DNA of 64,000 nucleotides from Gemmatimonadota bacterium (GCA_003222085.1 QHUK01000010.1:145801-209800); one strand, 5' to 3'; shown: positions 16,805 to 64,000, numbered from the stretch's first letter. The notes: generated by a model not told the origin, from the letters alone. Program-made: numbers and translations.

Positions 16805-18505
16805 GTGGAACGACGCGTTATTCTGGCCGTGCTCCTGATGCTCATCGTGGCAGTCTTGCCGAGCATCCTCTTCCCGCCGAAGAAGCCGGACCGGCGGGCC
16901 GGTGCGCGGCCGGACAGCACGACGACGCCAGCAGCCGCGGCAGCGGAGTCGGCTACTGCTCCGGTGCGACCGTCGGCGAGTCCGACTGTCCGCCCGTCCG
17001 CCAGCGCCCCCGCGGAAACAGTGTGGGTCACCTCTCCCCTGTATCGCCTCGGCTTCACCACGCGGGGCGGGGCCCTGGTGCGCGCGGAGCTGTTGGGCTA
17101 CCGCTCGTTCGCCAAGGCGGATTCGGGACGACCCGTCCAACTGGTCCGGGAAGGGGTGCCGCTGCTGATCTATCGGCGCACCGGGGGCGGGGGGGGCGGC
17201 GGGGCCGGCGGGGGCGGCGACACGACGCGCGTGTCGGATTGGAGCCTGACGCCGAGCGCGACACAGGTGCAGGTGGGGTCGGAGGGTGCGACCCTCACGT
17301 TCACCGGCGCGAGAGACGGCGCGCGCCTGGCGCTCGAATACCGCTTCTTCCCGGCCGAGTATCGGTTCGCCGTGCGCGGGCGGATGGAGGGATTCGGTCC
17401 CGCCGGCGCTACGCTGCTGCTCGGGCTGGGGGATGGACTGCGCTCGGTCGAGGCTGACTCGATGGACGATTTCCGCCACTACGCCGTGGTCACGAAGGCG
17501 ACGAAGACGCAGCGTACGGACTTCGGGTCGCTCAAGCCGGCGGAGCGCAAGATCCTCGACGGGCCGTTCGAGTGGGCCGGTGTCAAGTCGAAGTACTTTT
17601 TCATCGCCGCGCTCGTCGTGGAGGACAACCAGCCGCGGTTCGGCGCGGCGCTCGTCGAGGGCGGCCCACGCACCGTGTCGACGTCGTCGCTGTTCGGCCG
17701 CTCCACGGTGGCGACGCGGGCCGCCGTCGCCGTGACGCTGCCCGTGCCTCCCGCCGGGGGGTTCGACTACCAGCTGTACGTCGGGCCCCTCGAGTTCCGG
17801 CGTCTGTCGCAGCTCGGGCACGATCTGGACGATGCCAACCCGTACGGCGGGTTCCTGCAGCCCATCATCCAGCCCGTATCGGTGCTGGTCGTGAACATCC
17901 TGATCTGGATGCACGACCGGCTGACGCTCGCCTATGGCTGGGTGCTCATCATCTTCGGCATCCTGGTCCGGCTGCTCCTGTGGCCGCTCAATCAGCGCGC
18001 CATGGAGTCGAGCATCCGGATGCAGGCGGTCGCGCCGCTCTTGAAGCAGATCCAGGACCGCTACAAGAACGAGCCCGAGCGGCTGCAACGGGAGATGATG
18101 AAGCTCTACAAGGAGCACAACGTCAACCCGTTCGGCGGCTGCCTCCCGATGCTCCTGCCGATGCCGGTGTTGTTCGCGCTGTTCTTCGTGTTCGCGAACA
18201 CGATCGAGTTTCGAGGCGTCCCGTTCCTCTGGCTTCCCGACCTGTCGCGCGCCGACCCTTACTACATCATCCCCATCGTGATGGGGCTCTCGATGTTCGT
18301 GCTCTCGAAGGTCGGGCAGATCGGGATGCCGCCGAACCCGCAGACGAAGATGATGCTGTACTTCATGCCGGCGTTCTTGACGCTCCTGTTCCTGAACTTC
18401 GCCTCGGGGCTGAACCTGTACTACGCCGTGAGCAACATTTTCAGCATCCCGCAACAGTATTTGATCGCGCAGCGCCGGCTGCGGGAGCAGGGGAAGCGAA
18501 CCTGA
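16805..18505 (+). CDS. yidC: membrane protein insertase YidC
   Basis: ORF 16805..18505 (GTG start). N-terminal TM segment, a large periplasmic domain, and a C-terminal 60-kDa-IMP core (LWPLNQRAMESSIRMQAV...MKLYKEHNVNPFGGCLPMLLPMPV). Confidence 0.93.
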   Translation: MERRVILAVLLMLIVAVLPSILFPPKKPDRRAGARPDSTTTPAAAAAESATAPVRPSASPTVRPSASAPAETVWVTSPLYRLGFTTRGGALVRAELLGYRSFAKADSGRPVQLVREGVPLLIYRRTGGGGGGGAGGGGDTTRVSDWSLTPSATQVQVGSEGATLTFTGARDGARLALEYRFFPAEYRFAVRGRMEGFGPAGATLLLGLGDGLRSVEADSMDDFRHYAVVTKATKTQRTDFGSLKPAERKILDGPFEWAGVKSKYFFIAALVVEDNQPRFGAALVEGGPRTVSTSSLFGRSTVATRAAVAVTLPVPPAGGFDYQLYVGPLEFRRLSQLGHDLDDANPYGGFLQPIIQPVSVLVVNILIWMHDRLTLAYGWVLIIFGILVRLLLWPLNQRAMESSIRMQAVAPLLKQIQDRYKNEPERLQREMMKLYKEHNVNPFGGCLPMLLPMPVLFALFFVFANTIEFRGVPFLWLPDLSRADPYYIIPIVMGLSMFVLSKVGQIGMPPNPQTKMMLYFMPAFLTLLFLNFASGLNLYYAVSNIFSIPQQYLIAQRRLREQGKRT

Positions 18506-24395: not shown

Positions 24396-25223
24396 CTACG
24401 GGTGCGTCTCGAGCATGGGCACGTTGTACTGCCGCAGGATCTCGGTGATCTCGCCGTGCCGGCGGTCGATCACCGAATCGAGCGTGGCCTTGAGCGCCTT
24501 GTCGCGATGCCGCACGGCCATCGCCATGTCGAATGCGAATCGCATCCCCGAGACGGCGTCGGTGTCCGGCAACGCGACCATGGTGAGCGGGACGGACTCG
24601 CGCTTGACCCAATACCCCGCCAGGGGTCCCCACATCACGGCCACGTCGATCGAATCTCGCGCCACCGCGTGCACGATGTCTTCGGGGTGGTCGGCTTTGG
24701 GATCGGGATTGAGGAAGTTCCCGAACCCGACCAGGCCCACGATGCCGCGGGCGCCCAGCGCGTGCGCCGGCGGCGTGTTGGTGTAGTCGTAGCCGATGAT
24801 GTTCACGCCGATCTTGAGGCGCTTCAAGACCGTGTCGTCGAGCGAGCGCACCGCGAGGCCGCGATCGGCGCGGTACACGAAGTAGTAGGTGGAGCGGTAA
24901 TAGGGCTTCGTCGTCGCCACGGGGTCGAGGCCCACCGGGGCCTGGATCATCACGTCGCAGAATCCGCCGAGGATGGAGTTTCGCAGGACGCCACGGCGGC
25001 TGGGCCACCAGTAGTTGATGACCGTCGCGTTGAGATCTCGCGCGACGAGGTGGGCGATCTTGTTCTCGAATCCCTCCTCCTGATTGTTGGAGAAGGGCAG
25101 GTCGTAGGGATCGGCGCAGACCCGGAGGTCCGAGGGCGCCCGGGTCTGCGCACTGGCCATGAGGGCCACGCTGGCGGAGGCGACGAGTAACGCCCCCGCG
25201 AGCTTACTCCGTATGGAATGCAT
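24396..25223 (-). CDS. xoxJ: MoxJ/XoxJ-type periplasmic substrate-binding-fold protein associated with quinoprotein dehydrogenases
   Basis: ORF 24396..25223. Signal peptide, then LRVCADPYDLPFSN..., YYRSTYYFVYR, and IDVAVMWGPLAGYW, typical of the MxaJ/XoxJ family. Confidence 0.85.
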   Translation of the reverse strand: MHSIRSKLAGALLVASASVALMASAQTRAPSDLRVCADPYDLPFSNNQEEGFENKIAHLVARDLNATVINYWWPSRRGVLRNSILGGFCDVMIQAPVGLDPVATTKPYYRSTYYFVYRADRGLAVRSLDDTVLKRLKIGVNIIGYDYTNTPPAHALGARGIVGLVGFGNFLNPDPKADHPEDIVHAVARDSIDVAVMWGPLAGYWVKRESVPLTMVALPDTDAVSGMRFAFDMAMAVRHRDKALKATLDSVIDRRHGEITEILRQYNVPMLETHP

Positions 25224-25273: not shown

Positions 25274-25311
25274 CACCCGGTGCCGGAGCGCGTTCGCTCC
25301 GGCACCGGGTG
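25274..25311 (-). terminator. perfect 17-bp stem / 4-nt loop hairpin between xoxF and xoxJ (attenuator or mRNA stabiliser)
   Basis: CACCCGGTGCCGGAGCG cgtt CGCTCCGGCACCGGGTG, read directly. It lies 45 nt after the xoxF stop. Only a weak U-rich tail follows on the minus strand. Confidence 0.65.
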
Positions 25312-29496: not shown

Positions 29497-30965
29497 GGGA
29501 GTAAGGCGGCGATGAGTCCGCCGGCCTTGTCGAGCGTCTCGCGGTATTCCTGCTCCGGGTCGGAATCGGCCACGATGCCGCCGCCGACCTGGAAGTACAC
29601 GTCGCGGCCGAGCACGAGACAGGTGCGGATCACGATGCTCGTGTCCAGCGCGCCCGAAAGGGAGAGATAGCCGATGGAGCCGCAGTATGCGGCGCGCTGC
29701 GTGGGCTCGAGCTCCGCGATGATCTGCATCGCGCGGACTTTGGGGGCACCGGTGATCGAGCCGCCGGGGAACGCCGCCCGCAACAGGTCCACCGCGTCGC
29801 GCTCCGGCGCGAGCTCGCCTACGACGGTGGAGACGAGGTGGTGGACCGTGGCGTAGTGCTCGATGGCGAACAGCTCGGGCACGCGCACGGTTCCGGCGCG
29901 GCACACGCGCGACAGGTCGTTCCGGAGGAGATCCACGATCATCACGTTCTCGGCCCGGTCCTTGTCGCTCTCCACGAGCGCGCGCGCGAGCGCCGCGTCG
30001 TGCTCCGGGGAGAGCCCCCGGGGACGGGTTCCCTTGATCGGTCGCGTCTCGACTCGGCCGCCCGGTTCTACCCGCAGGAAGCGCTCGGGGGACGAGCTCG
30101 CCACCACCACGTTCCCGAAGTCGAGGTAGGCGGAGAAGGGCGCCGGATTGCGGTGGCGCAGCCGGCGGTACAAGTCGAGCGGCGTGCCGGCGAGCGGGGC
30201 TTCGAGGCGCTGCGACAGGTTTGCTTGGAAGATGTCGCCGGCGTAGACGTACTCGATGACGCGCGCGACGGCGTCGAGGTAGCCCTCGCGCGTGAAATTC
30301 GATCGGACGCCGGGGATACCGGGCACCGGATACGATGGAGCGGCAGAGCGTCGAGCCGGGCGCGGGGGGGCTCCCGGAGCGACTGCGTCTTTTTGTCGCG
30401 CAGGGAGCCCCCCCACGCCCGGCCGGGCCAGCCGATCCTTCAGGACAGCGAGCCGGTGGGCCGCGCGGCGCTCTTGGGCCATTCCCCGCTCCGGAATCCC
30501 CGTCGAGATCACCCAGGCGCGTCCCGCCGCGTGGTCCCACGCGATCACCCAGTCATATAGACCGAGCAGCAGGTCGGGCACGGCCAGGTCGTCGTAGCGC
30601 GGCCGCGGGACGCGCTCGAGCATCATGCCCCAGTCGTACCCGACGTAACCCGCGGCGCCGCCCTGGAACGGCGGGAGCTCCGCCACCGGCGCGGCTCCGT
30701 GTGTCGCCACGAGCGTCCCGACGTGTGCCAGCGGGTCCCCGGCGACGCGGACCCACTTCCCCTCCACGAGCTGCTGGGTGAGCAGCCCCTTCGAGCGCAC
30801 CGCCGTGACGGGATCGGCCGCGAGGAACGAGTAGCGCCCCAGATGCTCCGGATCGATCGCGCTGTCGAGGAATAGAAGAAAAGGCATGCCCTGAAAGCGC
30901 GCGCACGTCTCGAGCGGGTCCGGGGCGGGCACGAGCTCGTGGACCAGCGGCGATGGGGCGCTCAC
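29493..30965 (-). CDS. pabB: aminodeoxychorismate synthase component I
   Basis: In-frame GTG 30965 (GTGA overlap). Chorismate-binding fold. The RPIKGTRPRG motif has Lys, which is PabB-like, whereas TrpE has Ala at that position as I recall. Also GGSITGAPK and YCGSIGY. Confidence 0.78.
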   Translation of the reverse strand: MSAPSPLVHELVPAPDPLETCARFQGMPFLLFLDSAIDPEHLGRYSFLAADPVTAVRSKGLLTQQLVEGKWVRVAGDPLAHVGTLVATHGAAPVAELPPFQGGAAGYVGYDWGMMLERVPRPRYDDLAVPDLLLGLYDWVIAWDHAAGRAWVISTGIPERGMAQERRAAHRLAVLKDRLARPGVGGLPARQKDAVAPGAPPRPARRSAAPSYPVPGIPGVRSNFTREGYLDAVARVIEYVYAGDIFQANLSQRLEAPLAGTPLDLYRRLRHRNPAPFSAYLDFGNVVVASSSPERFLRVEPGGRVETRPIKGTRPRGLSPEHDAALARALVESDKDRAENVMIVDLLRNDLSRVCRAGTVRVPELFAIEHYATVHHLVSTVVGELAPERDAVDLLRAAFPGGSITGAPKVRAMQIIAELEPTQRAAYCGSIGYLSLSGALDTSIVIRTCLVLGRDVYFQVGGGIVADSDPEQEYRETLDKAGGLIAALLP

Positions 30966-33676: not shown

Positions 33677-34504
33677 ATGCAGCTTCTCATCAGTGTTGCC
33701 GGGCCCGCCGAAGCGCGCGCCGCGCTGCGCGGCGGGGCGGACGTGATCGACGCGAAAGATCCACGGCGTGGCGCCTTGGGCCCCGTGCCCCCGCACCGGC
33801 TCGCGGCCGTCCGCGCGGCGGTCGCCGGCGCGCGTCCGATCAGTGCCGCCTTGGGAGACGCCGCGAGTGAAGACGCGCTCGCCCGGGCCGTAGCCCTGGC
33901 GGTGTCGGTCGGTGTCGCCTTCGTGAAGGTGGGCTTCGCCGGCGTCACGAGCGAGCCTCGGGCGCGCCGCCTGGCGCTGGCTGCCCAACCGCGGGCCGGG
34001 ACGGACGTAGGGGCTCGGCTGGTGCTCGTCGCCTACGCGGACTGGCGGCGCGCCGAGAGCCTCGCGCCGGCACGCGTCGTCGCCGTCGCTGCGGCCGTCG
34101 GCGCGGCCGGCGTGCTGCTCGATACCGTGAACAAGGGCGTCCCCTTGTTCGCGATCGAGCCTCTCGCATCCCTGGCCGCCTGGGTCGCGGCCGCGCACGC
34201 CGCGAGGTTGTTCGCGGCGCTCGCCGGTGGCCTGTCGGGATCGGACTTCGTGAGGGCGCGCGCGCTCGGCGCCGATCTCGTGGGAGTGCGGGGCGCCGCG
34301 TGCGTCGGGGGACGAACGGGCCGGGTATCGCGCGCCCGGGTCGCGGCGCTGCGAGCCCTAACCGGCGCGGCGGCCCCCCCGGCCCCCCCGCCCCCCGCGT
34401 GTGTGCCGGTCGAGAGGGGGCTCCTCTCGCAGCGCGACGTCGAGCTGTCCGAGATCGTCCGCCGTGACGATGAGATGCTCCACGCCGTGCGGGAGCGTGC
34501 GTAA
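33677..34504 (+). CDS. mfnB: DUF556 / MfnB-like (5-formylfuran-3-yl)methyl phosphate synthase (methanofuran biosynthesis)
   Basis: MQLLISVAGPAEARAALRGGADVIDAKDP...GALG. The TIM-barrel-like pattern is typical of DUF556. The C-terminal ~40 aa look like a non-conserved run-on. Confidence 0.7.
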   Translation: MQLLISVAGPAEARAALRGGADVIDAKDPRRGALGPVPPHRLAAVRAAVAGARPISAALGDAASEDALARAVALAVSVGVAFVKVGFAGVTSEPRARRLALAAQPRAGTDVGARLVLVAYADWRRAESLAPARVVAVAAAVGAAGVLLDTVNKGVPLFAIEPLASLAAWVAAAHAARLFAALAGGLSGSDFVRARALGADLVGVRGAACVGGRTGRVSRARVAALRALTGAAAPPAPPPPACVPVERGLLSQRDVELSEIVRRDDEMLHAVRERA

Positions 34505-56533: not shown

Positions 56534-59139
56534 GGTCCCTCCGCGAGCTGCTTCTTCCACGCCGCGAGCCGATTCAACGCCTCGAGTGGCGACAGGGCGT
56601 TCACGTCGAGCCGGTCGAGTTCCTCGAGCAGCGGATGCGGGCTTCCCGACGGGCCGAACAGGCCGAGCTGGGCCGCATCGGGGCGTGCGGGCGGAGCCTG
56701 GTGCGCCACGTGGTGACCCGCTTCGAGCAGCGCGAGCACCTGCCACGCCCGCCCCACGACCGGCGCGGGCAGCCCTGCCAGCTGCCCGACGTGGATGCCG
56801 TACGACCGGTCGGCGCCGCCCGGCTCGAGGCGGTGCAGGAACACGATCTCGTCCCCCGCTTCGCGCACGGCCACGTTGAAGTTGCGTGCGTGGGCGAGCT
56901 CCTCGGTGAGTTGGGTCAGCTCGTGATAATGGGTCGCGAAGATCGTCTTGCACCCGATCGTGTTGTGCAGGAACTCGGTCACCGCCCAGGCGATCGCGAC
57001 GCCGTCGTACGTGGAGGTCCCCCGTCCGATCTCGTCCAGGAGCACGAGGCTCCGCGCCGTCGCCCCATGGAGTATGGCGCTGGTCTCGCTCATCTCCACC
57101 ATGAATGTCGACTGGCCGCGCACCAGATTGTCCGACGCCCCTACCCGCGTAAACAGTCGATCCACCACGCCCACGACGGCCCGCCGCGCGGGGACGAATG
57201 CCCCCATTTGGGCGAGCACGACGCACAACCCGACTTGTCTGAGCAGGGTCGACTTCCCCGCCATGTTCGGCCCGGTGAGCAGGATCACGCGACCGGCCTC
57301 GTCGAGCAGCACGTCATTCGGGATGAATGCCTCGCGCGCCATCATACGCTCGACCACCGGATGGCGGCTTCCCTCGAGCACGATGGTGAAGCCGTCGTTG
57401 ACCTCGGGTCGCACGTACCCCTCGCGCTGCGCGACATCGGCGAGGGCGCCCCACACGTCGAGCCGGGCGAGCACGCCGGCCGTCGTCTGCACCCGGGCGA
57501 TCGCCTGGGCCACGCGGACACGCAAGGCGTCCACCAGCTCCGCCTCGCGCGCCGCGATTCGCTCCTCCGCACCGAGCACCTTGGCCTCGTACGCCTTGAG
57601 CTCGGGCGTGACGAACCGCTCGGCGCCGGATAGCGTCTGGCGCCGCTCGTAGTCGGGCGGCACACGGTCCCGGTGGGGGTTCGTGATCTCGAGGTAGTAG
57701 CCGAAGACCTTGTTGAACCCGACCTTGAGTGAGGCGATGCCGGTGCGCTCGCGCTCCCGTGCCTGGAGCCCGGCGATGTACTGCTTCCCGCCGTCGCGCG
57801 CGTCCTTGAGCTCGTCGAGCTCGTGATCGTAGCCGGCCCGAATTGCGTCGCCGTCCGACGCCTGGGCCGGCGGACGCTCCACCAGCGCCCGGGCGAGCTC
57901 GTCGCCCAGGTCCTGGAGGAGATCGAAGCGGTCCGCGGCGTCCTCGAGCAGCGACGCCCGCCCGCGCGCCTCCAGGCCGTCGAGCGCGGCGCGCACGTCG
58001 GGCAGACGGAGAATCGAGTCCCGCAACGCTCCCAGCTCGCGCGGGGTCGCGCGCCCGAGCGCGGCGCGGCCCGCCAGGCGCTCGACGTCGCGTACCCCGT
58101 CGAGGGCTTCGCGCAGGCGGTCTCGCCCGCGCACGTCGCTAGCCAGGACCTCCACCGCATCGAGCCGAGCGGTGATGGCGCCGGGATCGACGAGCGGCGC
58201 CAGCAGCCATCCGCGTAACAGGCGGGCGCCCATCGGCGTCATCGTGCGGTCGAGGACGGCGAGCAGTGTCGTCCCCGCCGCGCCGGCAGGAGCGGCGCGG
58301 AGCGGCTCCACCAGCTCGAGGTTGCGCCTTGTCATCTCGTCGAGCGGCAACAGGTCGCCCCGTCGCAGCACCCGGGGGCGGGCGAGCTGCGGGAGGCCGC
58401 CCGGCTTGAGCTCCCGCGCGTAGCGGAGCAGCGCCCCGACCGCGCCCAGGGCAGGGCGGTCGCCCGGCTCGACGCCGAGCCCGTCGATCGAAGCCACTCG
58501 GAAGGTGCGGGCCAGGTCCTCGCGCGCCAGCTCGGGATCGAACTCCCACGCCTCGCGCTCGGTGCGCACCGCGCCCGGCAGCGGGAAGGTGACGGGTGTG
58601 CCGCTGGGAAGCACCACTTCCCGGGGCTCGTAGCGACTGAGCACCGCCGCGAGGTCCTCGGGAGCCGTGGTCTCGAGCAGCAGCTCGCCGGTCGTGAGAT
58701 CGAGCGCCGCCATCCCGGCCGGCGCGCCGCGAGCGTCGACCGCCAGCAGGAAGTTGTTGCGGGTGCGCTCGAGCCAGTCGTCGGCGAGGACGGTGCCGGG
58801 AGTGACGGTCTCCACCACCGCACGGCGCACGAGGCCCTTGGCGAGCTTGGGATCCTCTACCTGCTCGCAAATCGCCACGCGGTGACCGAGCCCAATCAGC
58901 CGCCGCAGGTACTCGGTCGCCGCCTTGACCGGAACGCCGGCGAGCGGCACCTCTGCCGCGCCGCCGTTGTTGCGCGAGGTGAGGGTGAGGCCCAGTTCCC
59001 GGGCGGCGAGCTGCGCGTCGTCCTCGAACATTTCGTAAAAGTCTCCCATCCGGAAGAACAGGATGGTGTCCGGGTATCGCGCTTTGATCTCGCGATACTG
59101 CTGCATCAGCGGCGTGTCCGCCTCGACTCGTGGCGTCAT
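56530..59139 (-). CDS. mutS: DNA mismatch repair protein MutS
   Basis: Motifs: TPLMQQYREIKARYPDTILFFRMGDFYEMF, Walker A GPNMAGKSTLLRQ, STFMVEM, DEIGRGTSTYDG. Confidence 0.95.
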   Translation of the reverse strand: MTPRVEADTPLMQQYREIKARYPDTILFFRMGDFYEMFEDDAQLAARELGLTLTSRNNGGAAEVPLAGVPVKAATEYLRRLIGLGHRVAICEQVEDPKLAKGLVRRAVVETVTPGTVLADDWLERTRNNFLLAVDARGAPAGMAALDLTTGELLLETTAPEDLAAVLSRYEPREVVLPSGTPVTFPLPGAVRTEREAWEFDPELAREDLARTFRVASIDGLGVEPGDRPALGAVGALLRYARELKPGGLPQLARPRVLRRGDLLPLDEMTRRNLELVEPLRAAPAGAAGTTLLAVLDRTMTPMGARLLRGWLLAPLVDPGAITARLDAVEVLASDVRGRDRLREALDGVRDVERLAGRAALGRATPRELGALRDSILRLPDVRAALDGLEARGRASLLEDAADRFDLLQDLGDELARALVERPPAQASDGDAIRAGYDHELDELKDARDGGKQYIAGLQARERERTGIASLKVGFNKVFGYYLEITNPHRDRVPPDYERRQTLSGAERFVTPELKAYEAKVLGAEERIAAREAELVDALRVRVAQAIARVQTTAGVLARLDVWGALADVAQREGYVRPEVNDGFTIVLEGSRHPVVERMMAREAFIPNDVLLDEAGRVILLTGPNMAGKSTLLRQVGLCVVLAQMGAFVPARRAVVGVVDRLFTRVGASDNLVRGQSTFMVEMSETSAILHGATARSLVLLDEIGRGTSTYDGVAIAWAVTEFLHNTIGCKTIFATHYHELTQLTEELAHARNFNVAVREAGDEIVFLHRLEPGGADRSYGIHVGQLAGLPAPVVGRAWQVLALLEAGHHVAHQAPPARPDAAQLGLFGPSGSPHPLLEELDRLDVNALSPLEALNRLAAWKKQLAEGP

Positions 59140-60005
59140 GGCTCCTCCACCACGAACGGCTGGCCACCGAGCCGGGTCTTGAGGCGTCGCTGGGCTTGCG
59201 CAGCTTCGTCGTGCGTCGCGTACCGTCCGACTCGCACCTTGAAGAGGCCGCTGGTGTCCCGCACCACCCGGGCGTCGAAGCCCATCACTTTCAAACGGGT
59301 GAGCATCTCGTCCACCTGCGCCGCGCTCTTCACGGCCAGTACCTGCACGGCATACGTCGCGGCCGAGGGCGTGGGCCTCGCCTGACTATCGCCCGCCGGG
59401 GCGGACGCGGCGGCCGGCGCGGCTACGGTGGCGGAGGCACACCGCGAGGCGTAGAAGCTCACCTGATTCTTGAACTCCACGTCGGCACCAGCGCCGTCCA
59501 GCGCCTCGCGGATCAGAGGACAGCCGCGGGCGTCATCTTTGAGGTCGAAGTAAGCGCGCGCGCCCCAGAAGGCCGCCCGGGCCCGCAACGGAGAATCGGG
59601 ATAGTCGAGGCGCAGCCGCTCCGCCGCTTGTACGGTGGCCGCGGGATCGCCCTGGGCGAAGTAGAGCTGGGTGAGCAGCACGAGCGCCGAGTCGGCCCAT
59701 ACCGACCGCCCGTATTCGACCACGACGCGCTGCAGGTTCGTCGCGGCGGTCGCTGCGTCGGCCGCGATGCGGCCTGCGGTAAAGAGTACGCCGGGGTAGA
59801 CGGAATCCTGCGGGGACAGGCTCGCAAGCAGCCGGCGAACCATGGCGCGCGCGGAGTCGGGGCGGGTCTGCGCGACCCGGAGGGCGGCCACGCGGACGGT
59901 GTCCGTCTGGGCGGACAGGCGGACGGGCGGACAGACGGACAGGGCCACGATAGCGAGGACGACCATCCGTCCGACCGCCCGACCGTCCGCCCGTCCGACA
60001 CTCAC
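59136..60005 (-). CDS. SPOR-domain protein with TPR-like/YbgF-like central region
   Basis: In-frame GTG 60005 (GTGA overlap with holA) within ORF 59136..60167. TM/signal segment MVVLAIVALSV. C-terminal SPOR block: YAVQVLAVKS...FKVRVGRYATHDEA. Confidence 0.75.
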   Translation of the reverse strand: MSVGRADGRAVGRMVVLAIVALSVCPPVRLSAQTDTVRVAALRVAQTRPDSARAMVRRLLASLSPQDSVYPGVLFTAGRIAADAATAATNLQRVVVEYGRSVWADSALVLLTQLYFAQGDPAATVQAAERLRLDYPDSPLRARAAFWGARAYFDLKDDARGCPLIREALDGAGADVEFKNQVSFYASRCASATVAAPAAASAPAGDSQARPTPSAATYAVQVLAVKSAAQVDEMLTRLKVMGFDARVVRDTSGLFKVRVGRYATHDEAAQAQRRLKTRLGGQPFVVEEP

Positions 60006-61072
60006 GCCGCCTCCCTCGCTCGCACGCCCCAGGGCAGCACCAGCTGCTCCAGGATGCCGGCTTCGTCGCTCAGCGTGCTCGACTTGAGGGCGCGATCGGC
60101 GTCGAGGGCCCGCCGCAGCGCGTGACGCAGCTCGCCGGCGGACCAGAGCCCCGCCCACCGGGCCCAACGGAGAGCGGTCTGCTCCCAGCTCCCCAGGCCG
60201 TACGGTCGCGCCGCTCGGAGGTGCGACAGCAGCGCAGCCTCGAGGCGATCGTGTCGCGGGCCGCCACCGCGCGGTGCGTCGCGGTCGAGCTCCGCCCGAG
60301 CGAGCGCCGTGCCGATGAGGGCCGTGCCGAGGGCGCTGAGCATGCGGACGCCGCTCATGCCGGCCTGCTCGAGCACCGCCTCGACGAGCCGGGCGGCGTC
60401 GGCTGCGCGCCGCTCAAGGGCCGCGTCCACGAAATCCTGGAGCGTCTCGCCGCGGCGCACCCCGACGAGCGCGGCCACCTCATCCCGGGTGGCCGGTCGC
60501 CCGGCGCACAGCGGGGCGAGCTTCTCGAGCTCTCGGGCAAGGCCGCTGAGGTCGTTTCCCACGCTGGCGAGGAGCAGCTCCCCCGCCTCGGGCGCGAGGG
60601 CGAGACCCAGCTGCTTGGCGCGGTGCCTCATCCAGCGCTCGACCCGGTCTGGAGGCAACGCCGCGACGTGAACGGCCGTCGCCCGGCGTACGAGCTCGGG
60701 GTCGGGCGGCTCGGCACCACCGTGCACCAGCACCAGCACCGTTGTGGGATTGGGAGCATCGAGATAGTGGAGCAGCTCCTGGCGCACCTTGGCGGCCTTG
60801 CGAAGCTGCTCCATCCCCCGGAGGACGACCACCCGGGTGGCGGTGAGCATGGGGGGCGTGTTCACCAGCGCATTGAACGCTTCGGGGTCGAGATCGGTGG
60901 CTGCGCGCTGGTCGAGGTTGAAGTCGCGGGCGGCCGGGTCGACCGCGCGCTCCACGAGGGCGCGCACCGCCTCGTCCTTCAACTCGTCCTCCTCGCCGTG
61001 GAGATAGTAGACGGCATCCGGCGCGCCCTGCTTCAGGCTCCGGAGCAGTGCGTCAAAGGTGAGAGCCCCCAT
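60002..61072 (-). CDS. holA: DNA polymerase III subunit delta
   Basis: ORF 60002..61072. N-terminus with YYLHGEEDELKDEAV...FNLDQ and PPMLTATRVVVLRG, typical of HolA. Length 356 aa. Confidence 0.85.
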   Translation of the reverse strand: MGALTFDALLRSLKQGAPDAVYYLHGEEDELKDEAVRALVERAVDPAARDFNLDQRAATDLDPEAFNALVNTPPMLTATRVVVLRGMEQLRKAAKVRQELLHYLDAPNPTTVLVLVHGGAEPPDPELVRRATAVHVAALPPDRVERWMRHRAKQLGLALAPEAGELLLASVGNDLSGLARELEKLAPLCAGRPATRDEVAALVGVRRGETLQDFVDAALERRAADAARLVEAVLEQAGMSGVRMLSALGTALIGTALARAELDRDAPRGGGPRHDRLEAALLSHLRAARPYGLGSWEQTALRWARWAGLWSAGELRHALRRALDADRALKSSTLSDEAGILEQLVLPWGVRAREAA

Positions 61073-61112
61073 ACGGGGCGGAAGTTACCGTGGCCTGGAG
61101 TCGAGAGAAAGC

Positions 61113-61601
61113 CTACCGCCCTGCGGATGCCGGCTCGACGAGGGCAGAGCCGTCAGGGGCCTGGGGCCCCGGGAACACGCTCGCGCGCGGGTCCTGGAAT
61201 GAGACGAACGGCACACCGGTCTGGACGACAGGATTCGGGAAGGGGACGGGCGGGAGCACCGGGGAACGCGCGACTTCGGGGCGCCTGACGCCTTCGAGCG
61301 CCAACATCGCGAGCGCCGCCGCGATGACCAGCGCCACCGCTACGCCGGCACTCGCCGGAACCTCACCGGCCGCCCGCCGCTCGCGCTCCAGCCGTGCGTC
61401 GAGCCGGCGGCGGAAGTCGCGTGAGGGCTCGATTGTTCCCGCGGCCTGCAACGCGAGCACGCCGCGCCGCACAGCCCCGTCGTAGCGTCGGCAACCGGCA
61501 CAGTGCGTGAGGTGGCGCCCAAACCTGCGAAGCTCGCGCGGGGCGGTGATCAGACCGTCCCGAAACTCCGTATAGCGCTCGAGGAATTCGGCGCACGTCA
61601 T
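61113..61601 (-). CDS. anti-sigma factor (zf-HC2 type, single TM)
   Basis: The N-terminal H-x3-C-x2-C motif (HLTHCAGCRRY) lies about 30 aa from the start. TM segment VAVALVIAAALAMLAL. Located downstream of an ECF sigma gene. Confidence 0.75.
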   Translation of the reverse strand: MTCAEFLERYTEFRDGLITAPRELRRFGRHLTHCAGCRRYDGAVRRGVLALQAAGTIEPSRDFRRRLDARLERERRAAGEVPASAGVAVALVIAAALAMLALEGVRRPEVARSPVLPPVPFPNPVVQTGVPFVSFQDPRASVFPGPQAPDGSALVEPASAGR

Positions 61602-61637
61602 GGCGGGAATTTATTACCGTCGGGCCAGGCCTAGGTT

Positions 61638-61694
61638 CCCCCCCGCCCCCCGCCCCCAGCCCCAAGGGCGTGGGTGGGGGGGGTGGGTGGGGGG
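61638..61694. repeat. abutting C-tract and G-tract block (hairpin and/or G-quadruplex motifs on both strands) between sigma and anti-sigma genes
   Basis: Plus strand reads C7 G C6 G C5 AG C4 AA G3 CGT G3 T G8 T G3 T G6, read directly. Confidence 0.85.
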
Positions 61695-61714
61695 CCACCG
61701 CCTGTGGCGCTGTG

Positions 61715-62371
61715 CTACTCCAGGAGCGGACCGATCAGCTGGGCGAAGCTGTTCCGGGCCCGATTGAGGCGGCTTTTCACGGTGCCCAGATTGCACCCCG
61801 TGATGTCGGCGATCTCAGCGTAGCTCTTGCCTTCCAACTCGCGGAGCACGAAGACGGCCCGGTGGTGGGTGGGCAGTTGGTCCACGCACTGGTCGACGGC
61901 TTCCTTGAGGAAGCGTTTGCGGTACAGGTCGTCGGGCCGGGCCGTAGTGTCTTCGAACTGGAGCGGGCGGTGGTCCGCCTCCCAGTGCTTTTTGATCGTC
62001 TGGAACAGCACCAGCGGGTTGCGGCTACGGTTCCTGAGCTCGTTCTTGGCCAGGTTCGACGCGATGGTGTAGATCCAGGTCGAGAACTTCTTGGTCTGGT
62101 CGAAGCGGTGGAGATGACGGAACACGCGGATGAAGACCTCCTGCACGAGGTCCTCCGCGCGCTCCCGGTCTCCAATGGTCCGATTGATGAAGTTGAGCAG
62201 CCGGGTCTGGTAGCGGTCTACCAGGGTGCCGAAGGCTTGGGGGTCGCCCGACAGGTGCTCAAGCACCAGCCGGCCGTCGTCAAACTCGTGCAACGCCTGG
62301 CGCTCGAGCGCGCGAGGCGTCGCGACTGCCTGGCTCTTCCGCGTGAGGGTTGCTCGCATGGACCGCTCCAT
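61715..62371 (-). CDS. ECF-type RNA polymerase sigma-70 family factor
   Basis: ORF 61715..62377 starts at TTG, so ATG 62371 (or 62359) is preferred. Region 2: DLVQEVFIRVFRHLHRF, FSTWIYTIASN. Region 4 HTH: SYAEIADITGCNLGTVKSRLNRAR. Confidence 0.9.
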   Translation of the reverse strand: MERSMRATLTRKSQAVATPRALERQALHEFDDGRLVLEHLSGDPQAFGTLVDRYQTRLLNFINRTIGDRERAEDLVQEVFIRVFRHLHRFDQTKKFSTWIYTIASNLAKNELRNRSRNPLVLFQTIKKHWEADHRPLQFEDTTARPDDLYRKRFLKEAVDQCVDQLPTHHRAVFVLRELEGKSYAEIADITGCNLGTVKSRLNRARNSFAQLIGPLLE

Positions 62372-62380
62372 GTTCAAGCC

Positions 62381-62419
62381 GGTACCGTTCCTCTATAAAG
62401 ATACGGCAGGAACCGTACC
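62381..62419. promoter_or_regulatory. inverted repeat GGTACCGTTCCT / AGGAACCGTACC around an AT-rich core, just upstream of the ECF sigma gene
   Basis: 12-nt arms with one central mismatch, separated by CTATAAAGATACGGC. Both arms carry GGAAC, the usual ECF -35 core. Confidence 0.45.
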
Positions 62420-62518
62420 CGTCGCATCACCTCCGTAACCCTCGATACGGTCGGCGCTTCACGGATGCAGCGTGGAGTCGGCCCGACACGTCCGTCCTCA
62501 TCGGGGGACGGCCGGTTG

Positions 62519-63061
62519 CTACATCTTGAGGATGAATCCGGCCATATAAAGGATAGCCACCACGGTCTTTGCATCACGGACATCGCCGTCCCGGATTCGA
62601 GCCAGAACCTGCGACAACGGCTGTGGGACGACCTCGATGAACTCGTCGCGCTCGCGCGACGGTGTCCCCGCCGTGAGCCCGCTCGCCACGTAGAGGTGGA
62701 TCACCTCATCGGTGAAGCCCGGGGTGGTCCAGATCGAGGTCATCCGCTCGAGCCGGCCGGCCGTGACCCCGGCCTCTTCGAGCAGCTCGCGGCGGGCACA
62801 CGCCTCGGGATCTTCGCCCGGGTCGAGGGTGCCGGCCGGGATCTCCCACAGCAGACCGCCCGCGGCGTAGCGGTACTGGCGGATCAACAGGATCGTGGGA
62901 TCGGGATCGACGTGCGGGTCGGAGGCGCACGGCACGATGGCGGCGGCGCCCGGGTGGCGGATGATCTCCAGCTCCCCGGTGGAGCCGTCGGGGAATCGCA
63001 CGGTGTCGACGTCAAGCCGCACGACCCGGCCGGTGTAGGCCCGACGGCTTTCGAGCTGCAT
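62519..63061 (-). CDS. NUDIX hydrolase (ADP-ribose pyrophosphatase-like)
   Basis: In-frame ATG 63061 within ORF 62519..63685. Nudix box: GTLDPGEDPEACARRELLEEAGV. Confidence 0.85.
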   Translation of the reverse strand: MQLESRRAYTGRVVRLDVDTVRFPDGSTGELEIIRHPGAAAIVPCASDPHVDPDPTILLIRQYRYAAGGLLWEIPAGTLDPGEDPEACARRELLEEAGVTAGRLERMTSIWTTPGFTDEVIHLYVASGLTAGTPSRERDEFIEVVPQPLSQVLARIRDGDVRDAKTVVAILYMAGFILKM

Positions 63062-63069
63062 GGGCACCC

Positions 63070-63672
63070 TCAGTGGTTGAAGAGCCAGGTGACAGGGACC
63101 TTGAACCCCTCGGCGAGGAAGTAAGCCGCGTTGCGTCGCGGATTCGACCGGATGGGGGAATTGGGGGCAGGGGAGGTGAACGGCAGGAGGCCGAGTCGGG
63201 TGGCGATGATCCGGAGGCGTAGCATGTGAAAGCCATCGGACACGAGCAGGACGCGGCGGCTCTCTTTCCCGGAGAACCAGTGGGCGACGCCGTCCAGGGA
63301 GGCCGACGTGCTCGCGCCCGCCGGCAGCCCGACGACCGCGCCGTCGGGGAGCCCCGCTTTCAGGAGATACCGCCGTCCAACGTCCGACTCGCTCAGGGTG
63401 TCGCCCGATCCCACCCCACCGGTCACCAGGACCACGGGCGCGAGGCCGCGCTGATACAGGGCCGCCGCGTGGTCGAGCCGCGCTCGGAACACGGGCGACG
63501 GCCGACCGTTGTACTGCGCGGCGCCGAGCACGGCGATCGCGTCGGCCGAGCGCGCTTCGTCGTGGGCGCCGGCGAGTGCCACGGCCACGACGACGGCTGC
63601 CCAGCCGAAGGTGAGGGCGACCAGAAGCGTCCCCGCCGCGAATGCTTTGCGGCGCAGAGTCCAGAATGGCAT
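63070..63672 (-). CDS. YdcF/ElyC (DUF218) family protein
   Basis: N-terminal TM segment. Motifs: IAVLGAAQ, VLVTGG, SESDVGRRYL, VLLVSDGFHMLR. Confidence 0.75.
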   Translation of the reverse strand: MPFWTLRRKAFAAGTLLVALTFGWAAVVVAVALAGAHDEARSADAIAVLGAAQYNGRPSPVFRARLDHAAALYQRGLAPVVLVTGGVGSGDTLSESDVGRRYLLKAGLPDGAVVGLPAGASTSASLDGVAHWFSGKESRRVLLVSDGFHMLRLRIIATRLGLLPFTSPAPNSPIRSNPRRNAAYFLAEGFKVPVTWLFNH

Positions 63673-63712
63673 GGGGGAAAGACAACAGGGGAAGGGAGTA
63701 GAGGGAAGGGGG

Positions 63713-64000
63713 CTAAAGGCTCAGCCAGTAGTTGAACTTCACCAAGAGCACGTTGGTCGGTGGATCGAGAAACATCTCGTGGCCGAGATAGTGTCCGAGG
63801 TCGAGCGTGGGGTCGAGAAGACTGACGAACCGCGACTGGCTCCAGACGAAAAACACCGTGGACCCGGGCCGGTACTCCCATCGCAGCACGGCGTTCGAGC
63901 GGAACGAGCGGACGCGGCTGTCGGGGTTCGAGAACTGGAAGCTGTCGGTCGGCGCAACCGCGGGCGCCGGGTGCACGGTGTACACGGCCGTACCGGGGTC
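63713..64000 (-). CDS. C-terminal end of a large outer-membrane-type protein (DUF5916-like); 5' part outside window
   Basis: The frame of ORF 63713..63985 stays open to the window edge. C-terminal strands (VLRWEYRPGSTVFFVWSQ, NVLLVKFNYWLSL) resemble beta-barrel termini. The family call is tentative. Confidence 0.45.
   Translation of the reverse strand, partial: DPGTAVYTVHPAPAVAPTDSFQFSNPDSRVRSFRSNAVLRWEYRPGSTVFFVWSQSRFVSLLDPTLDLGHYLGHEMFLDPPTNVLLVKFNYWLSL

What the first reader, a model, noticed from the sequence alone, without database searches (positions are those of the whole stretch)
61602..61714. Back-to-back C-tract and G-tract (mutually complementary G4 motifs on both strands) between ECF sigma and anti-sigma genes
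The 113-bp spacer contains C7 G C6 G C5 AG C4 followed 2 nt later by G3 CGT G3 T G8 T G3 T G6 (61638-61694).

Each strand therefore carries a textbook G-quadruplex motif with 1-2-nt loops. The two halves can also pair into a hairpin of about 25 bp that is almost pure G:C. In the sigma-to-anti-sigma transcript (minus strand) the order is C-rich then G-rich.

Sigma and anti-sigma genes are usually overlapping or tightly coupled so that they are made 1:1. Here they are separated by an extreme structure, and the anti-sigma ATG has no SD (upstream sequence UAAUAAAUUCCCGCC).

This looks like a device to uncouple or tune anti-sigma production through termination, RNA processing or a translation block. 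It might respond to conditions that shift the hairpin/G4 equilibrium.
Basis: partly seen in the sequence, partly recalled or inferred. Interest (0 to 1): 0.6.

Follow-up and report, generated by a model that had tools for sequence, protein, structure and literature searches.

The report
Variable GC hairpin before anti-sigma promoter
The striking C-run/G-run tract is real, but it is a fast-changing, dispensable GC hairpin; what separates sigma from anti-sigma expression in this bacterial family is most likely a conserved promoter-like motif just downstream of the tract.

Summary
61638-61694 is the most C-rich/G-rich and most stably folding stretch of the 64 kb window, and it carries a canonical G4 motif on both strands.

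I compared about 140 distinct orthologous spacers from Gemmatimonadales genomes and metagenomes.
- **No overlap.** Sigma and anti-sigma never overlap.
- **Conserved motif.** The conserved spacer element is not the tract. It is GGAAC-N16-GGTA (61639-61615, minus strand), an ECF-type promoter-like motif found in 138/140 spacers. In the window, TAAATT follows it 6 nt before the ATG. That geometry implies a leaderless or very short-leader mRNA and explains the missing SD.
- **Sigma's own promoter-like box.** The sigma gene has a conserved sigma-54-like -24/-12 box.
- **Hypervariable tract.** The tract fills the slot between the sigma stop codon and the -35. A near-identical relative (L081) differs by two indels. 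Many relatives at 91-94% sigma identity have no tract. More distant relatives carry unrelated hairpins there, some with U-runs.

Best reading: a slippage-prone, terminator-like or insulating hairpin between two transcription units. In the sense RNA, the thermodynamic model favours the hairpin over a G4. The architecture has precedents in M. tuberculosis sigE/rseA and E. coli rseA P3. One point stays open: G/C-run motifs are about 50-fold enriched in this slot in the closest clade.

The parts
61715..62377 (-). ECF (RpoE/SigW-like) sigma factor gene; stop codon TAG at 61717-61715
   Evidence: Pfam Sigma70_r2, Sigma70_r4_2 and Sigma70_ECF. NCBIfam sigma70-ECF 7.8e-34, above its cut-off; the best equivalog-type hits are RpoE and SigW, both below their cut-offs. 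160 orthologous loci in Gemmatimonadales genomes and metagenomes.
62406..62419 (-). Sigma-54-type -24/-12 promoter-like box GGTACGGTTCCTGC upstream of the sigma gene
   Evidence: The pattern GG[CT]A[CT]R-N4-NTGC lies within 200 nt upstream of sigma in 148/150 distinct loci. The GGAAC-N16-GGTA motif is absent there.
61640..61714 (-). Hypervariable slot between the sigma stop codon and the -35; it holds most of the C-run/G-run tract
   Evidence: Compared with L081, the sigma 3' 400 nt are identical but the slot has 2 substitutions and 2 indels. The alignment of close relatives shows conserved flanks and a rearranged tract. The slot is only 1-14 nt long in many relatives.
61638..61692 (-). Predicted GC hairpin in the sense transcript. 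The 5' arm is C-rich (complement of + strand 61666-61694). The 3' arm is G-rich (complement of 61638-61663). About 23 pairs, 3-nt loop, no U-tract after it (the next bases are AACCUAGG).
   Evidence: RNA fold -48.3 kcal/mol, unchanged when G-quadruplexes are allowed. Most stable local fold in the window. No T-run terminator called in 59000-64000.
61638..61663 (+). C-tract on the + strand, which is the G4 motif GGGGCUGGGGGCGGGGGGCGGGGGGG on the minus (sense) strand. Its last two bases overlap the -35 GGAAC.
   Evidence: G arm alone as RNA G4: -34.7 kcal/mol.
61666..61694 (+). G-tract on the + strand (G4 motif on the template strand of sigma/anti-sigma transcription); it is the C-rich arm in the sense RNA
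61635..61639 (-). -35-like element GGAAC of the conserved ECF-type promoter-like motif
   Evidence: GGAAC-N17/18-GTA is present in 74/75 genome loci and 138/140 distinct spacers. The spacing is fixed while the sequence between the two elements varies. GGAAC-N15/16-GGTA occurs only once in the window.
61615..61618 (-). -10-like element GGTA (consensus cGGTA), 16 nt downstream of GGAAC
   Evidence: The G before GTA was not part of the search pattern and is nearly invariant.
61608..61613 (-). TAAATT (TANNNT) hexamer exactly 6 nt upstream of the anti-sigma ATG; this is leaderless-type geometry
   Evidence: TANNNT lies 5-8 nt before the ATG in 74/119 distinct spacers of the >=80% clade (54 at exactly 6 nt). 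SD-like sequence is absent in 116/119.
61113..61601 (-). Putative ZAS-type membrane anti-sigma factor gene (ATG 61601-61599)
   Evidence: zf-HC2 E=1.1e-3 and NCBIfam anti-sigma 2e-7, both below their cut-offs. The HxxxCxxC motif is read from the translation. tblastn alignments in the relatives with a detectable homologue start at residue 1.
61081..61111 (-). Conserved CTTTCTC...CGGTAACTTC block upstream of holA (ATG 61072), no SD; a second short-leader promoter-like block

Best explanation
The locus consists of two transcription units.

1. The ECF sigma gene sits behind a conserved sigma-54-type -24/-12 box.
2. The anti-sigma gene (probably with holA) sits behind its own conserved ECF-type promoter-like motif, GGAAC-N16-GGTA. 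This motif is so close to the ATG that the mRNA has no leader, or one of only a few nucleotides, so no SD is needed.

The C-run/G-run tract fills the slot between the sigma stop codon and that -35. In the sense transcript the C-rich arm emerges first and the G-rich arm pairs with it. The result is a hairpin of about 23 bp and about -48 kcal/mol.

Its most likely role is that of the hairpins found in the same slot in relatives. It marks or protects the 3' end of the sigma transcript. It also reduces read-through into the anti-sigma unit, acting as a terminator-like insulator that is probably inefficient or factor-dependent because it lacks a U-tract.

Its homopolymeric make-up is best explained by replication slippage. 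Run-on-run pairing tolerates indels, so the element drifts quickly in length and sequence while staying foldable.

**Shown:** the sequence, the fold, the conservation of the two promoter-like motifs, the hypervariability and dispensability of the tract, and the enrichment of hairpins in this slot.

**Inferred:** that the motifs are active promoters, which sigma factors read them, and that the hairpin terminates or stabilises RNA.

The confidence of 0.5 is for the whole statement. For the two-unit architecture alone I would put it at about 0.8, and for the terminator/insulator role of the tract at about 0.45.
For: **Conserved promoter-like motif.**
- GGAAC-N17/18-GTA occurs in 74/75 genome loci and 138/140 distinct spacers.
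- The -35/-10 spacing stays fixed while the distance to the ATG ranges from 9 to 84 nt. The motif is therefore a DNA-level bipartite element and is not tied to the start codon.
- The strict motif is unique in the window and is found almost only at this position in the loci.

**Leaderless geometry.** TANNNT lies 5-8 nt before the ATG in 74/119 spacers, and 116/119 have no SD-like sequence.

**Sigma's own box.** The sigma-54-like motif is present in 148/150 upstream regions.

**Hairpins recur in this slot.**
- Uninterrupted stems of >=9 bp occur in 36% of slots against 5% of length-matched random segments from the same loci.
- The hairpin sequences are unrelated to one another.
- Hairpins followed by U-runs occur in L002 and L084, and in 6 of 21 spacers of the <80% clade, for example L063, L064, L067, L078 and L080.

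**Hairpin versus G4.** Hairpin -48.3 kcal/mol against -34.7 for a G4 of the G arm alone, in the sense RNA.

**Slippage signature.**
- WIN vs L081: flanks 0-1% different, slot with two indels in the runs.
- L002 vs L084 and L003 vs L102 show run-length changes.

**Precedents.**
- M. tuberculosis sigE and rseA are adjacent, are not cotranscribed, and have a promoter in the intergenic region (PMC10027907).
- E. coli rseA P3 is a sigmaE-dependent promoter for rseA, and rpoE also has a sigma-54 promoter (PMC8595263).
Against: - No U-tract follows the window's hairpin. Mycobacterial RNAP, the best-studied high-GC case, needs a U-tract for intrinsic termination (PMC3993855, title and abstract seen).
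- Hairpin potential is not kept everywhere in the close clade. G-only tracts occur in L085, L086, L116, L003 and L012, C-mostly tracts occur in L097-L101, and the hairpin is decayed in L089.
- About 30 relatives have no room for any element upstream of the -35, so the tract is dispensable.
- In 23 of 24 strongly folding spacers of the >=90% clade the antisense RNA folds better than the sense RNA. Optimisation of a sense-strand RNA hairpin would not predict this.
- No transcript data are available. Promoter activity, the transcription start site and the cognate sigma are all inferred.
Confidence: 0.5

Rival explanations
1. G-quadruplex/i-motif switch. G4s fold on one or both DNA strands, or in the RNA, next to and overlapping the -35. 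They block read-through or occlude the anti-sigma promoter, in a way that depends on supercoiling, K+ or transcription. This would tune the sigma:anti-sigma ratio.
For: - Canonical G4 motifs lie on both strands.
- The sense-strand G7 run includes the GG of GGAAC.
- In the >=90% clade, 27/56 distinct spacers carry a G4 motif on one strand or the other in this slot. That is 13.4 per kb, against 0 in 9.5 kb and 2.4 kb of flanking intergenic DNA from the same loci, and 0.26 per kb overall.
- Several relatives have G-only tracts that cannot form the hairpin: L085, L086, L116, L003, L012 and L036.
Against: - The strand carrying the G-runs is not consistent: C-runs in the sense strand in 21 spacers, G-runs in 11, both in 5.
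- No run or loop is conserved.
- Many close relatives lack the tract, and all 21 spacers of the <80% clade lack G4 motifs.
- In the window's sense RNA the complementary C arm is transcribed first, and the hairpin is about 14 kcal/mol more stable than the G4 in the model.
- The duplex must first melt for DNA G4s to form.
Confidence: 0.1
2. Functionless low-complexity DNA. An ancestral GC hairpin or run in a non-essential spacer has been expanding, contracting and decaying by slippage. The present tract has no role, and only the promoter is under selection.
For: - The tract is dispensable in about 30 relatives.
- It shows strain-level indels, and its divergence is 5-17 differences per 100 nt against 0-8 in the flanks.
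- Hairpin potential has been lost in some lineages.
- The order of the arms and the run composition look inherited within one clade only.
Against: - Stems are clearly enriched in this slot across the whole family, including non-homologous hairpins.
- The immediate clade (anti-sigma >=83% identical) always keeps a tract of 29-85 nt.
- The roughly 50-fold excess of G/C-run motifs over neighbouring intergenic DNA needs at least a local mutational cause.
Confidence: 0.3
3. Rho-dependent terminator. The C-rich, G-poor RNA just after the sigma stop codon is a rut site, and the following G-rich segment or hairpin is the pause where Rho releases the transcript.
For: - The sense RNA of the slot is C-rich in most close relatives, with C-run motifs in 21/56 spacers. 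L097-L101 and L088-L096 have 35-75 nt of C-rich, G-poor RNA.
- The sense strand folds worse than the antisense strand in 23/24 spacers, as expected for C>G RNA.
Against: - In the window the C-rich stretch is only about 30 nt and is immediately sequestered by its G-rich complement.
- G-only tracts exist in the same clade.
- No Rho data or rut model is available for this phylum.
Confidence: 0.1

Closest known systems
M. tuberculosis sigE / rseA locus (PMC10027907)
   Same: An ECF sigma gene is followed by its redox-sensitive anti-sigma gene. The two are adjacent but not cotranscribed. A promoter lies in the intergenic region, and the anti-sigma is in an operon with downstream genes. The stated consequence is an adjustable sigma:anti-sigma ratio.
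   Different: The phylum is different (Gemmatimonadota). Here the intergenic promoter-like motif is itself ECF-type (GGAAC-N16-GGTA) and abuts the ATG. The sigma gene carries a sigma-54-like box. No homopolymeric GC hairpin was mentioned in the passages read about the mycobacterial locus.
E. coli rpoE-rseABC with the internal sigmaE-dependent promoter rseA P3 and a sigma-54 promoter for rpoE (PMC8595263)
   Same: The anti-sigma has its own promoter that depends on the ECF sigma (negative feedback). The sigma gene is also served by a sigma-54 promoter. The window's sigma scores best against RpoE-type models.
   Different: rseA P3 lies inside rpoE, more than 230 nt upstream of rseA, and gives a long structured 5' UTR. 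rpoE and rseA are also cotranscribed. Here the motif is intergenic, the leader is 0 to about 6 nt, and a hairpin slot separates the genes.
Intrinsic terminators, including U-tract-less 'I-shaped' hairpins proposed for high-GC bacteria
   Same: A GC-rich stem-loop lies directly after a stop codon at the end of a transcription unit. Relatives carry canonical hairpin+U-run versions at the same position.
   Different: The window's hairpin has no U-tract and an unusually long stem of about 23 pairs built from homopolymer runs. U-less hairpins terminate poorly with mycobacterial RNAP (PMC3993855).
Simple-sequence contingency (phase-variable) loci with poly-G/poly-C tracts at promoters (own knowledge)
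   Same: Homopolymer runs of 6-8 lie next to a promoter, and their lengths differ between near-identical strains.
   Different: The runs lie upstream of the -35 and overlap it by only 2 nt. Length changes therefore do not alter the -35/-10 spacing or a reading frame, so there is no obvious on/off switch.
Bacterial promoter-proximal G4 motifs (own knowledge: reported in Deinococcus and other high-GC bacteria, and in synthetic E. coli constructs)
   Same: Canonical G4 motifs on either strand lie just upstream of a promoter.
   Different: Here each G-run arm faces a complementary C-run arm on the same strand, so a hairpin or duplex competes strongly. There is no conservation of the motif or of its strand.

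Membership tests
Canonical G-quadruplex motif (G>=3, loops 1-7, four runs) | Four G-runs of >=3 with short loops on a strand | tested here: met
   + strand 61666-61687 (and beyond) and minus strand 61638-61663.
Canonical G-quadruplex motif (G>=3, loops 1-7, four runs) | The G4 fold is preferred over competing structures | tested here: not met
   Sense RNA: the MFE with G4 allowed is still the hairpin (-48.3 kcal/mol), and the G arm alone as a G4 is -34.7. Antisense RNA: a G4-containing fold is slightly better (-56.6 vs -52.3). All. This is a model only; folding in vivo was not testable.
Canonical G-quadruplex motif (G>=3, loops 1-7, four runs) | Conservation of the motif at orthologous loci | tested here: inconclusive
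   The sequence is not conserved and the motif is absent from many relatives. Even so, 27/56 spacers of the closest clade carry some G4 motif on one strand or the other.
Intrinsic (Rho-independent) terminator | Stable GC-rich hairpin downstream of the stop codon | tested here: met
   About 23 pairs, -48.3 kcal/mol, starting 22 nt after the TAG.
Intrinsic (Rho-independent) terminator | U-rich tract of about 7-9 nt immediately 3' of the stem | tested here: not met
   The stem is followed by AACCUAGGCC. The consensus scan found no terminator in 59000-64000. The feature is met in relatives L002 and L084 and in 6/21 distant spacers.
Intrinsic (Rho-independent) terminator | Transcript 3' ends map to the element | not testable with these tools
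   Needs Term-seq or RNA-seq.
ECF sigma-dependent promoter | -35 containing AAC (GGAAC-type) and a -10 of (C)GT type, separated by about 16-17 nt (own knowledge of the ECF consensus, e.g. SigW TGAAAC-N16-CGTA, SigH/SigE GGAAC-N16-18-GTT) | tested here: met
   GGAAC-N16-GGTA at 61639-61615, with spacing class 17/18 to GTA in all loci.
ECF sigma-dependent promoter | Phylogenetic footprint: both elements conserved while the sequence between them varies | tested here: met
   138/140 distinct spacers. The chance expectation for the pattern is about 1 per 64 kb on both strands.
ECF sigma-dependent promoter | Transcription start downstream and dependence on the cognate sigma | not testable with these tools
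   No transcriptome or in vitro transcription is available.
Leaderless / very short-leader mRNA | TANNNT-type -10 about 6-7 nt upstream of the start codon, and no SD | tested here: met
   TAAATT-N6-ATG in the window. 74/119 spacers have TANNNT at 5-8 nt, and 116/119 have no SD-like sequence.
Phase-variable simple-sequence contingency locus | Run-length polymorphism between closely related strains | tested here: met
   WIN vs L081, L002 vs L084 and L003 vs L102.
Phase-variable simple-sequence contingency locus | Repeat placed where a length change switches expression (between -35 and -10, or inside an ORF) | tested here: not met
   The runs lie upstream of the -35 and overlap it only at its first two G.
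Rho-dependent terminator (rut site) | Long (about 60-80 nt) C-rich, G-poor, unstructured RNA after the stop codon | tested here: not met
   In the window only about 30 nt are C-rich, and they are paired with the G arm. Some relatives (L097-L101) come closer.
Sigma-54 promoter (upstream of the sigma gene) | GG-N10-GC (-24/-12) matching TGGCACG-N4-TTGC | tested here: met
   GGTACGGTTCCTGC at 62419-62406, and 148/150 loci carry the pattern. The presence of rpoN and of an activator in this genome was not tested.
Known RNA families (Rfam 15) | Match to a curated covariance model | tested here: not met
   There are only two sub-threshold chance-level hits elsewhere in 61000-62600, and none in the spacer.

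The most novel reading that the evidence does not exclude
The G/C-run tract is a hypermutable structural module (hairpin, cruciform, G4 or i-motif) fused to the -35 of the anti-sigma promoter. It is maintained in one Gemmatimonadales clade because slippage-driven length variants set different levels of read-through or promoter activity. The result would be heritable strain-to-strain variation in the sigma:anti-sigma ratio, that is, in the stress-response set-point. The roughly 50-fold local excess of G4-type motifs would then be a selected feature and not a mutational by-product.
Probability: 0.1. Interest if true: 0.7.

Novelty: new member of a known kind. Interest (0 to 1): 0.3.

Why it matters
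**For the finding itself.** The conspicuous tract is not the regulatory core of the spacer. An annotator would be misled by treating it as a conserved G4 riboregulator.

**The more useful result.** The inferred wiring is conserved across roughly 150 uncultured Gemmatimonadales lineages:
- a sigma-54-type box in front of the ECF sigma gene;
- a hairpin slot after the sigma stop codon;
- an ECF-type promoter-like motif abutting a leaderless anti-sigma gene.

This predicts pure negative feedback on the anti-sigma, and input to the sigma gene through an enhancer-binding protein. The motif GGAAC-N16-GGTA can be used to predict this sigma factor's regulon in a poorly studied soil phylum.

**The open question.** The clade-specific pile-up of G/C runs in a single 30-85-nt slot is a small but clean natural case. 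It could be used to study how slippage-prone GC hairpins evolve next to a promoter.

Tried and rejected
- **Dinucleotide-shuffle z-score.** Sense-strand z was -0.24. It is uninformative, because any mixture of C-runs and G-runs folds well. I replaced it with window-wide ranking and Markov simulation.
- **Ungapped inverted-repeat finder.** It did not rank the tract, because the arms pair with bulges.
- **Consensus promoter/terminator scan.** It found nothing in 59-64 kb. This organism's signals do not fit the E. coli consensus.
- **Rfam.** No family matched in the spacer.
- **Long-range stem.** The stem predicted, pairing the region just after the sigma stop with the anti-sigma start codon, was rejected as a translation block. 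The complementary bases are not conserved in L082, L084, L001 or L083.
- **Coding tract.** I rejected the idea that the tract codes for protein. ORF 61363-61698 is in another frame, the sigma stop is conserved, and an in-frame TAA lies before the anti-sigma ATG.
- **Autoregulatory promoter upstream of sigma.** The GGAAC-N16-GGTA motif is not found there.
- **Generic intergenic property.** The flanking intergenic regions of the same loci have no G4 motifs.
- **Motif significance in the window alone.** It is not significant, with about 1 match expected by chance. The evidence for it is comparative.
- **Literature searches.** I found no published promoter motif for Gemmatimonadetes ECF sigmas and no G4-based bacterial terminator that was directly applicable.

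Full report
**1. Observation**

The sequence is as described. On the + strand, C7GC6GC5AGC4 (61638-61663) is followed after AA by G3CGTG3TG8TG3TG6 (61666-61694).

All neighbouring genes are on the minus strand:
- NUDIX hydrolase (62519-about 63100);
- ECF sigma (61715-62377; Pfam Sigma70_r2 and r4_2; best NCBIfam models RpoE and SigW, both below their equivalog cut-offs);
- a putative ZAS-type anti-sigma (61113-61601; zf-HC2 E=1.1e-3 and NCBIfam anti-sigma 2e-7, both below their cut-offs; HxxxCxxC motif plus a hydrophobic helix);
- holA (60002-61072), a SPOR-domain protein and mutS.

The tract is far outside chance:
- It contains the top C-rich and the top G-rich 28-nt windows of the 64 kb.
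- Its C+G arm score is 46/55, against a maximum of 36 in 200 Markov simulations.
- It is the most stable 64-nt fold of the window on both strands (-58.3 and -50.4 kcal/mol; background -23.3 ± 5.8).

In the sense (minus-strand) RNA the hairpin has about 23 pairs and -48.3 kcal/mol.

**2. Comparative evidence**

The sigma protein retrieved 80 loci from species-representative genomes and 80 from metagenomes. The titled genome records are almost all Gemmatimonadales, Longimicrobiales or other Gemmatimonadota MAGs. The gene order sigma then anti-sigma is retained, and the anti-sigma alignments start at residue 1.

In no locus do the genes overlap. The spacers are 15-304 nt.

- **The conserved core.** Every spacer except two has GGAAC, then 16 nt, then GGTA. 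The spacing of the two blocks is fixed (17 or 18 nt from GGAAC to GTA), while the sequence between them varies. The distance to the ATG ranges from 9 to 84 nt. This is the behaviour of a bipartite promoter, not of a translation signal.
- **Specificity.** The strict motif occurs once in the whole window and almost nowhere else in the loci.
- **Resemblance to ECF promoters.** It resembles the ECF consensus known from other systems, with AAC in the -35 and (C)GT in the -10 at 16-17 nt (own knowledge: SigW, SigH, SigE, RpoE).
- **Leaderless geometry.** In the clade with >=80% sigma identity, the motif sits 9-16 nt from the ATG. 74/119 distinct spacers have TANNNT 5-8 nt before the ATG (the window has TAAATT-N6-ATG), and 116/119 lack any SD-like sequence. 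This implies a leaderless or few-nucleotide-leader mRNA and explains the missing SD. More distant relatives have leaders of 25-84 nt, and 4 of 21 show an SD-like GGAG/AGGA just before the ATG.
- **The sigma gene.** It does not carry the GGAAC-N16-GGTA motif. Instead, 148/150 upstream regions contain GG(C/T)A(C/T)R-N4-NTGC, a sigma-54-type -24/-12 pattern.

**3. The tract itself**

It fills the slot between the sigma stop codon and the -35. The last CC of the + strand C7 run is the GG of GGAAC. This slot is hypervariable.

- **Strain-level change.** L081 has 400/400 identical bases at the sigma 3' end and 396/400 in the anti-sigma. Its tract nevertheless lacks 3 nt in one arm and 8 nt in the other. 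Other near-identical pairs differ by run-length changes.
- **Close relatives.** Relatives at 96-99% sigma identity have quite different C-run/G-run arrangements between conserved flanks.
- **Loss of one arm.** Some have only G-runs (L085, L086, L116, L003, L012, L036) or mostly C-runs (L097-L101).
- **Absence.** About 30 relatives at 89-94% identity have 39-48-nt spacers that hold the promoter only.
- **Distant relatives.** The same slot holds unrelated hairpins. Six of 21 are followed by U-runs, which makes them classical intrinsic terminators. L002 and L084 in the close clade also have hairpin+T6 or T4.
- **Hairpin enrichment.** Across the family, uninterrupted stems of >=9 bp occur in 36% of slots against 5% of length-matched random segments. 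In 48 spacers the stem spans the -35.

One feature is not explained by a generic terminator. In the >=90% clade, 27/56 distinct spacers have a canonical G4 motif on one strand or the other. That is 13.4 per kb, against 0 in the two flanking intergenic regions of the same loci and 0.26 per kb overall. None of the 21 spacers of the <80% clade has one. The sense strand tends to be the C-rich one, so the antisense RNA folds better in 23/24 cases.

**4. Mechanism**

The best-supported picture is two transcription units separated by a hairpin slot:
- P(sigma-54-like) drives sigma.
- A GC hairpin follows.
- P(ECF-like) drives a leaderless anti-sigma, probably with holA. holA also has its own conserved CTTTCTC...GGTAACTTC block.

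If the ECF-like motif is read by this sigma, the anti-sigma is under pure negative feedback, and the sigma gene responds to a separate input.

The window's tract is the local version of the slot's hairpin. In the nascent sense RNA the C arm emerges first. The hairpin is also about 14 kcal/mol more stable than a G4 of the G arm. A hairpin is therefore the expected RNA structure.

Without a U-tract it is unlikely to be an efficient autonomous terminator; compare the mycobacterial requirement for a U-tract (PMC3993855). It may instead pause RNAP, act together with a factor, or protect the 3' end of the sigma mRNA.

Its homopolymeric arms and rapid indel turnover point to slippage. Run-on-run pairing stays foldable in any register, which would let such an element persist while drifting.

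Rivals, with my estimates:
- **Functionless slippage product (0.3).** It fits the dispensability but not the family-wide stem enrichment.
- **G4/i-motif switch (0.1).** It fits the motif enrichment and the G-only tracts. It does not fit the inconsistent strand, the lack of conservation or the competing complement.
- **Rho rut site (0.1).** It fits the C-rich sense RNA of several relatives, but poorly fits the window itself.

**5. Comparison with known systems**

- **M. tuberculosis sigE/rseA.** The genes are adjacent but not cotranscribed, and a promoter lies in the intergenic region. The authors note that this allows the ratio of the two proteins to change (PMC10027907).
- **E. coli rseA P3.** This is a sigmaE-dependent promoter dedicated to rseA, and rpoE also has a sigma-54 promoter (PMC8595263).

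The architecture here is therefore a new member of a known kind. Its local peculiarities are the leaderless geometry, the intergenic ECF-type motif and the homopolymeric hairpin.

The tract fails the U-tract criterion of intrinsic terminators. It also fails the placement criterion of phase-variable promoter repeats. It passes the formal G4 motif test but not the test of being the preferred fold in the sense RNA.

**6. Verdict**

- **Observation:** confirmed.
- **Interpretation:** partly supported. Uncoupling of the two genes is likely, but it comes from a conserved promoter. The tract is a variable, dispensable accessory whose role, if any, is probably that of a hairpin insulator.
- **Interest:** modest (0.3). 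The residual open question is why G/C runs accumulate in this one slot in one clade.

Noticed in passing
window 62406-62419 (minus strand) and the equivalent position in L001-L160: A conserved sigma-54-type -24/-12 box (GGTACGGTTCCTGC; pattern GG[CT]A[CT]R-N4-NTGC) lies upstream of the ECF sigma gene in 148/150 distinct loci. In some loci (GGCACGATTCGTGCC) it is also a 7-1-7 palindrome, so an operator reading is not excluded.
   Followed up: partly
window 61081-61111 (minus strand), upstream of holA (ATG 61072): A conserved CTTTCTC ... CGGTAACTTC block lies 8-9 nt before the holA start codon, with no SD. It is present in most relatives with >=84% sigma identity and looks like another short-leader or leaderless promoter.
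   Followed up: partly
window about 62470-62490 (minus strand), between the NUDIX stop codon and the sigma-54-like box: A small inverted repeat (GTCCCCCGATGAGGAC in the window) has the form TGTC..GACA or GTCC..GGAC in relatives, with apparently compensatory inner changes (e.g. TGTCTC/GAGACA, TGTCCCC/GGGGACA). It could be a terminator hairpin for the NUDIX gene or an activator site for the sigma-54-like promoter.
   Followed up: no
window 25274-25311: A perfect 17-bp GC-rich hairpin (4-nt loop) lies between two co-directional minus-strand genes (stop at 25356, next ATG at 25223 preceded by GGAG). There is no T-run on either side. This suggests that U-less hairpins are the usual gene-end structure in this genome.
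   Followed up: partly
window 30364-30414: A hairpin G7CTCCC ... GGGAGC7 encloses an inner GCGAC-TGCGTCTTTTT-GTCGC stem-loop. It is among the five most stable local folds of the window. Its genomic context was not resolved.
   Followed up: no
window 17183-17214 and 34374-34396: There are two other G4-type run tracts (G5CG8CGGCG4CCGGCG5, and C7GGC7GC6). Both lie inside long high-GC3 ORFs, so they probably encode Gly- or Pro-rich segments and are not regulatory.
   Followed up: no
L017-L031, L134-L160 and similar loci (spacers of about 66 nt): In 48 spacers of the >=80% clade, a stem of >=7 bp spans the -35, so GGAAC lies in or next to the loop (e.g. CCCGGCCGCGGAACACCCCGTGGCCGGG). It is followed by GGTACATTT. 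This may be a compact terminator overlapping the promoter, with the -10 region serving as a weak U-rich tail.
   Followed up: partly
L036:3664-3816 (150-nt spacer): One relative has a G/A-rich tract of about 100 nt (runs up to G12) in the same slot. This is the most extreme expansion seen.
   Followed up: no
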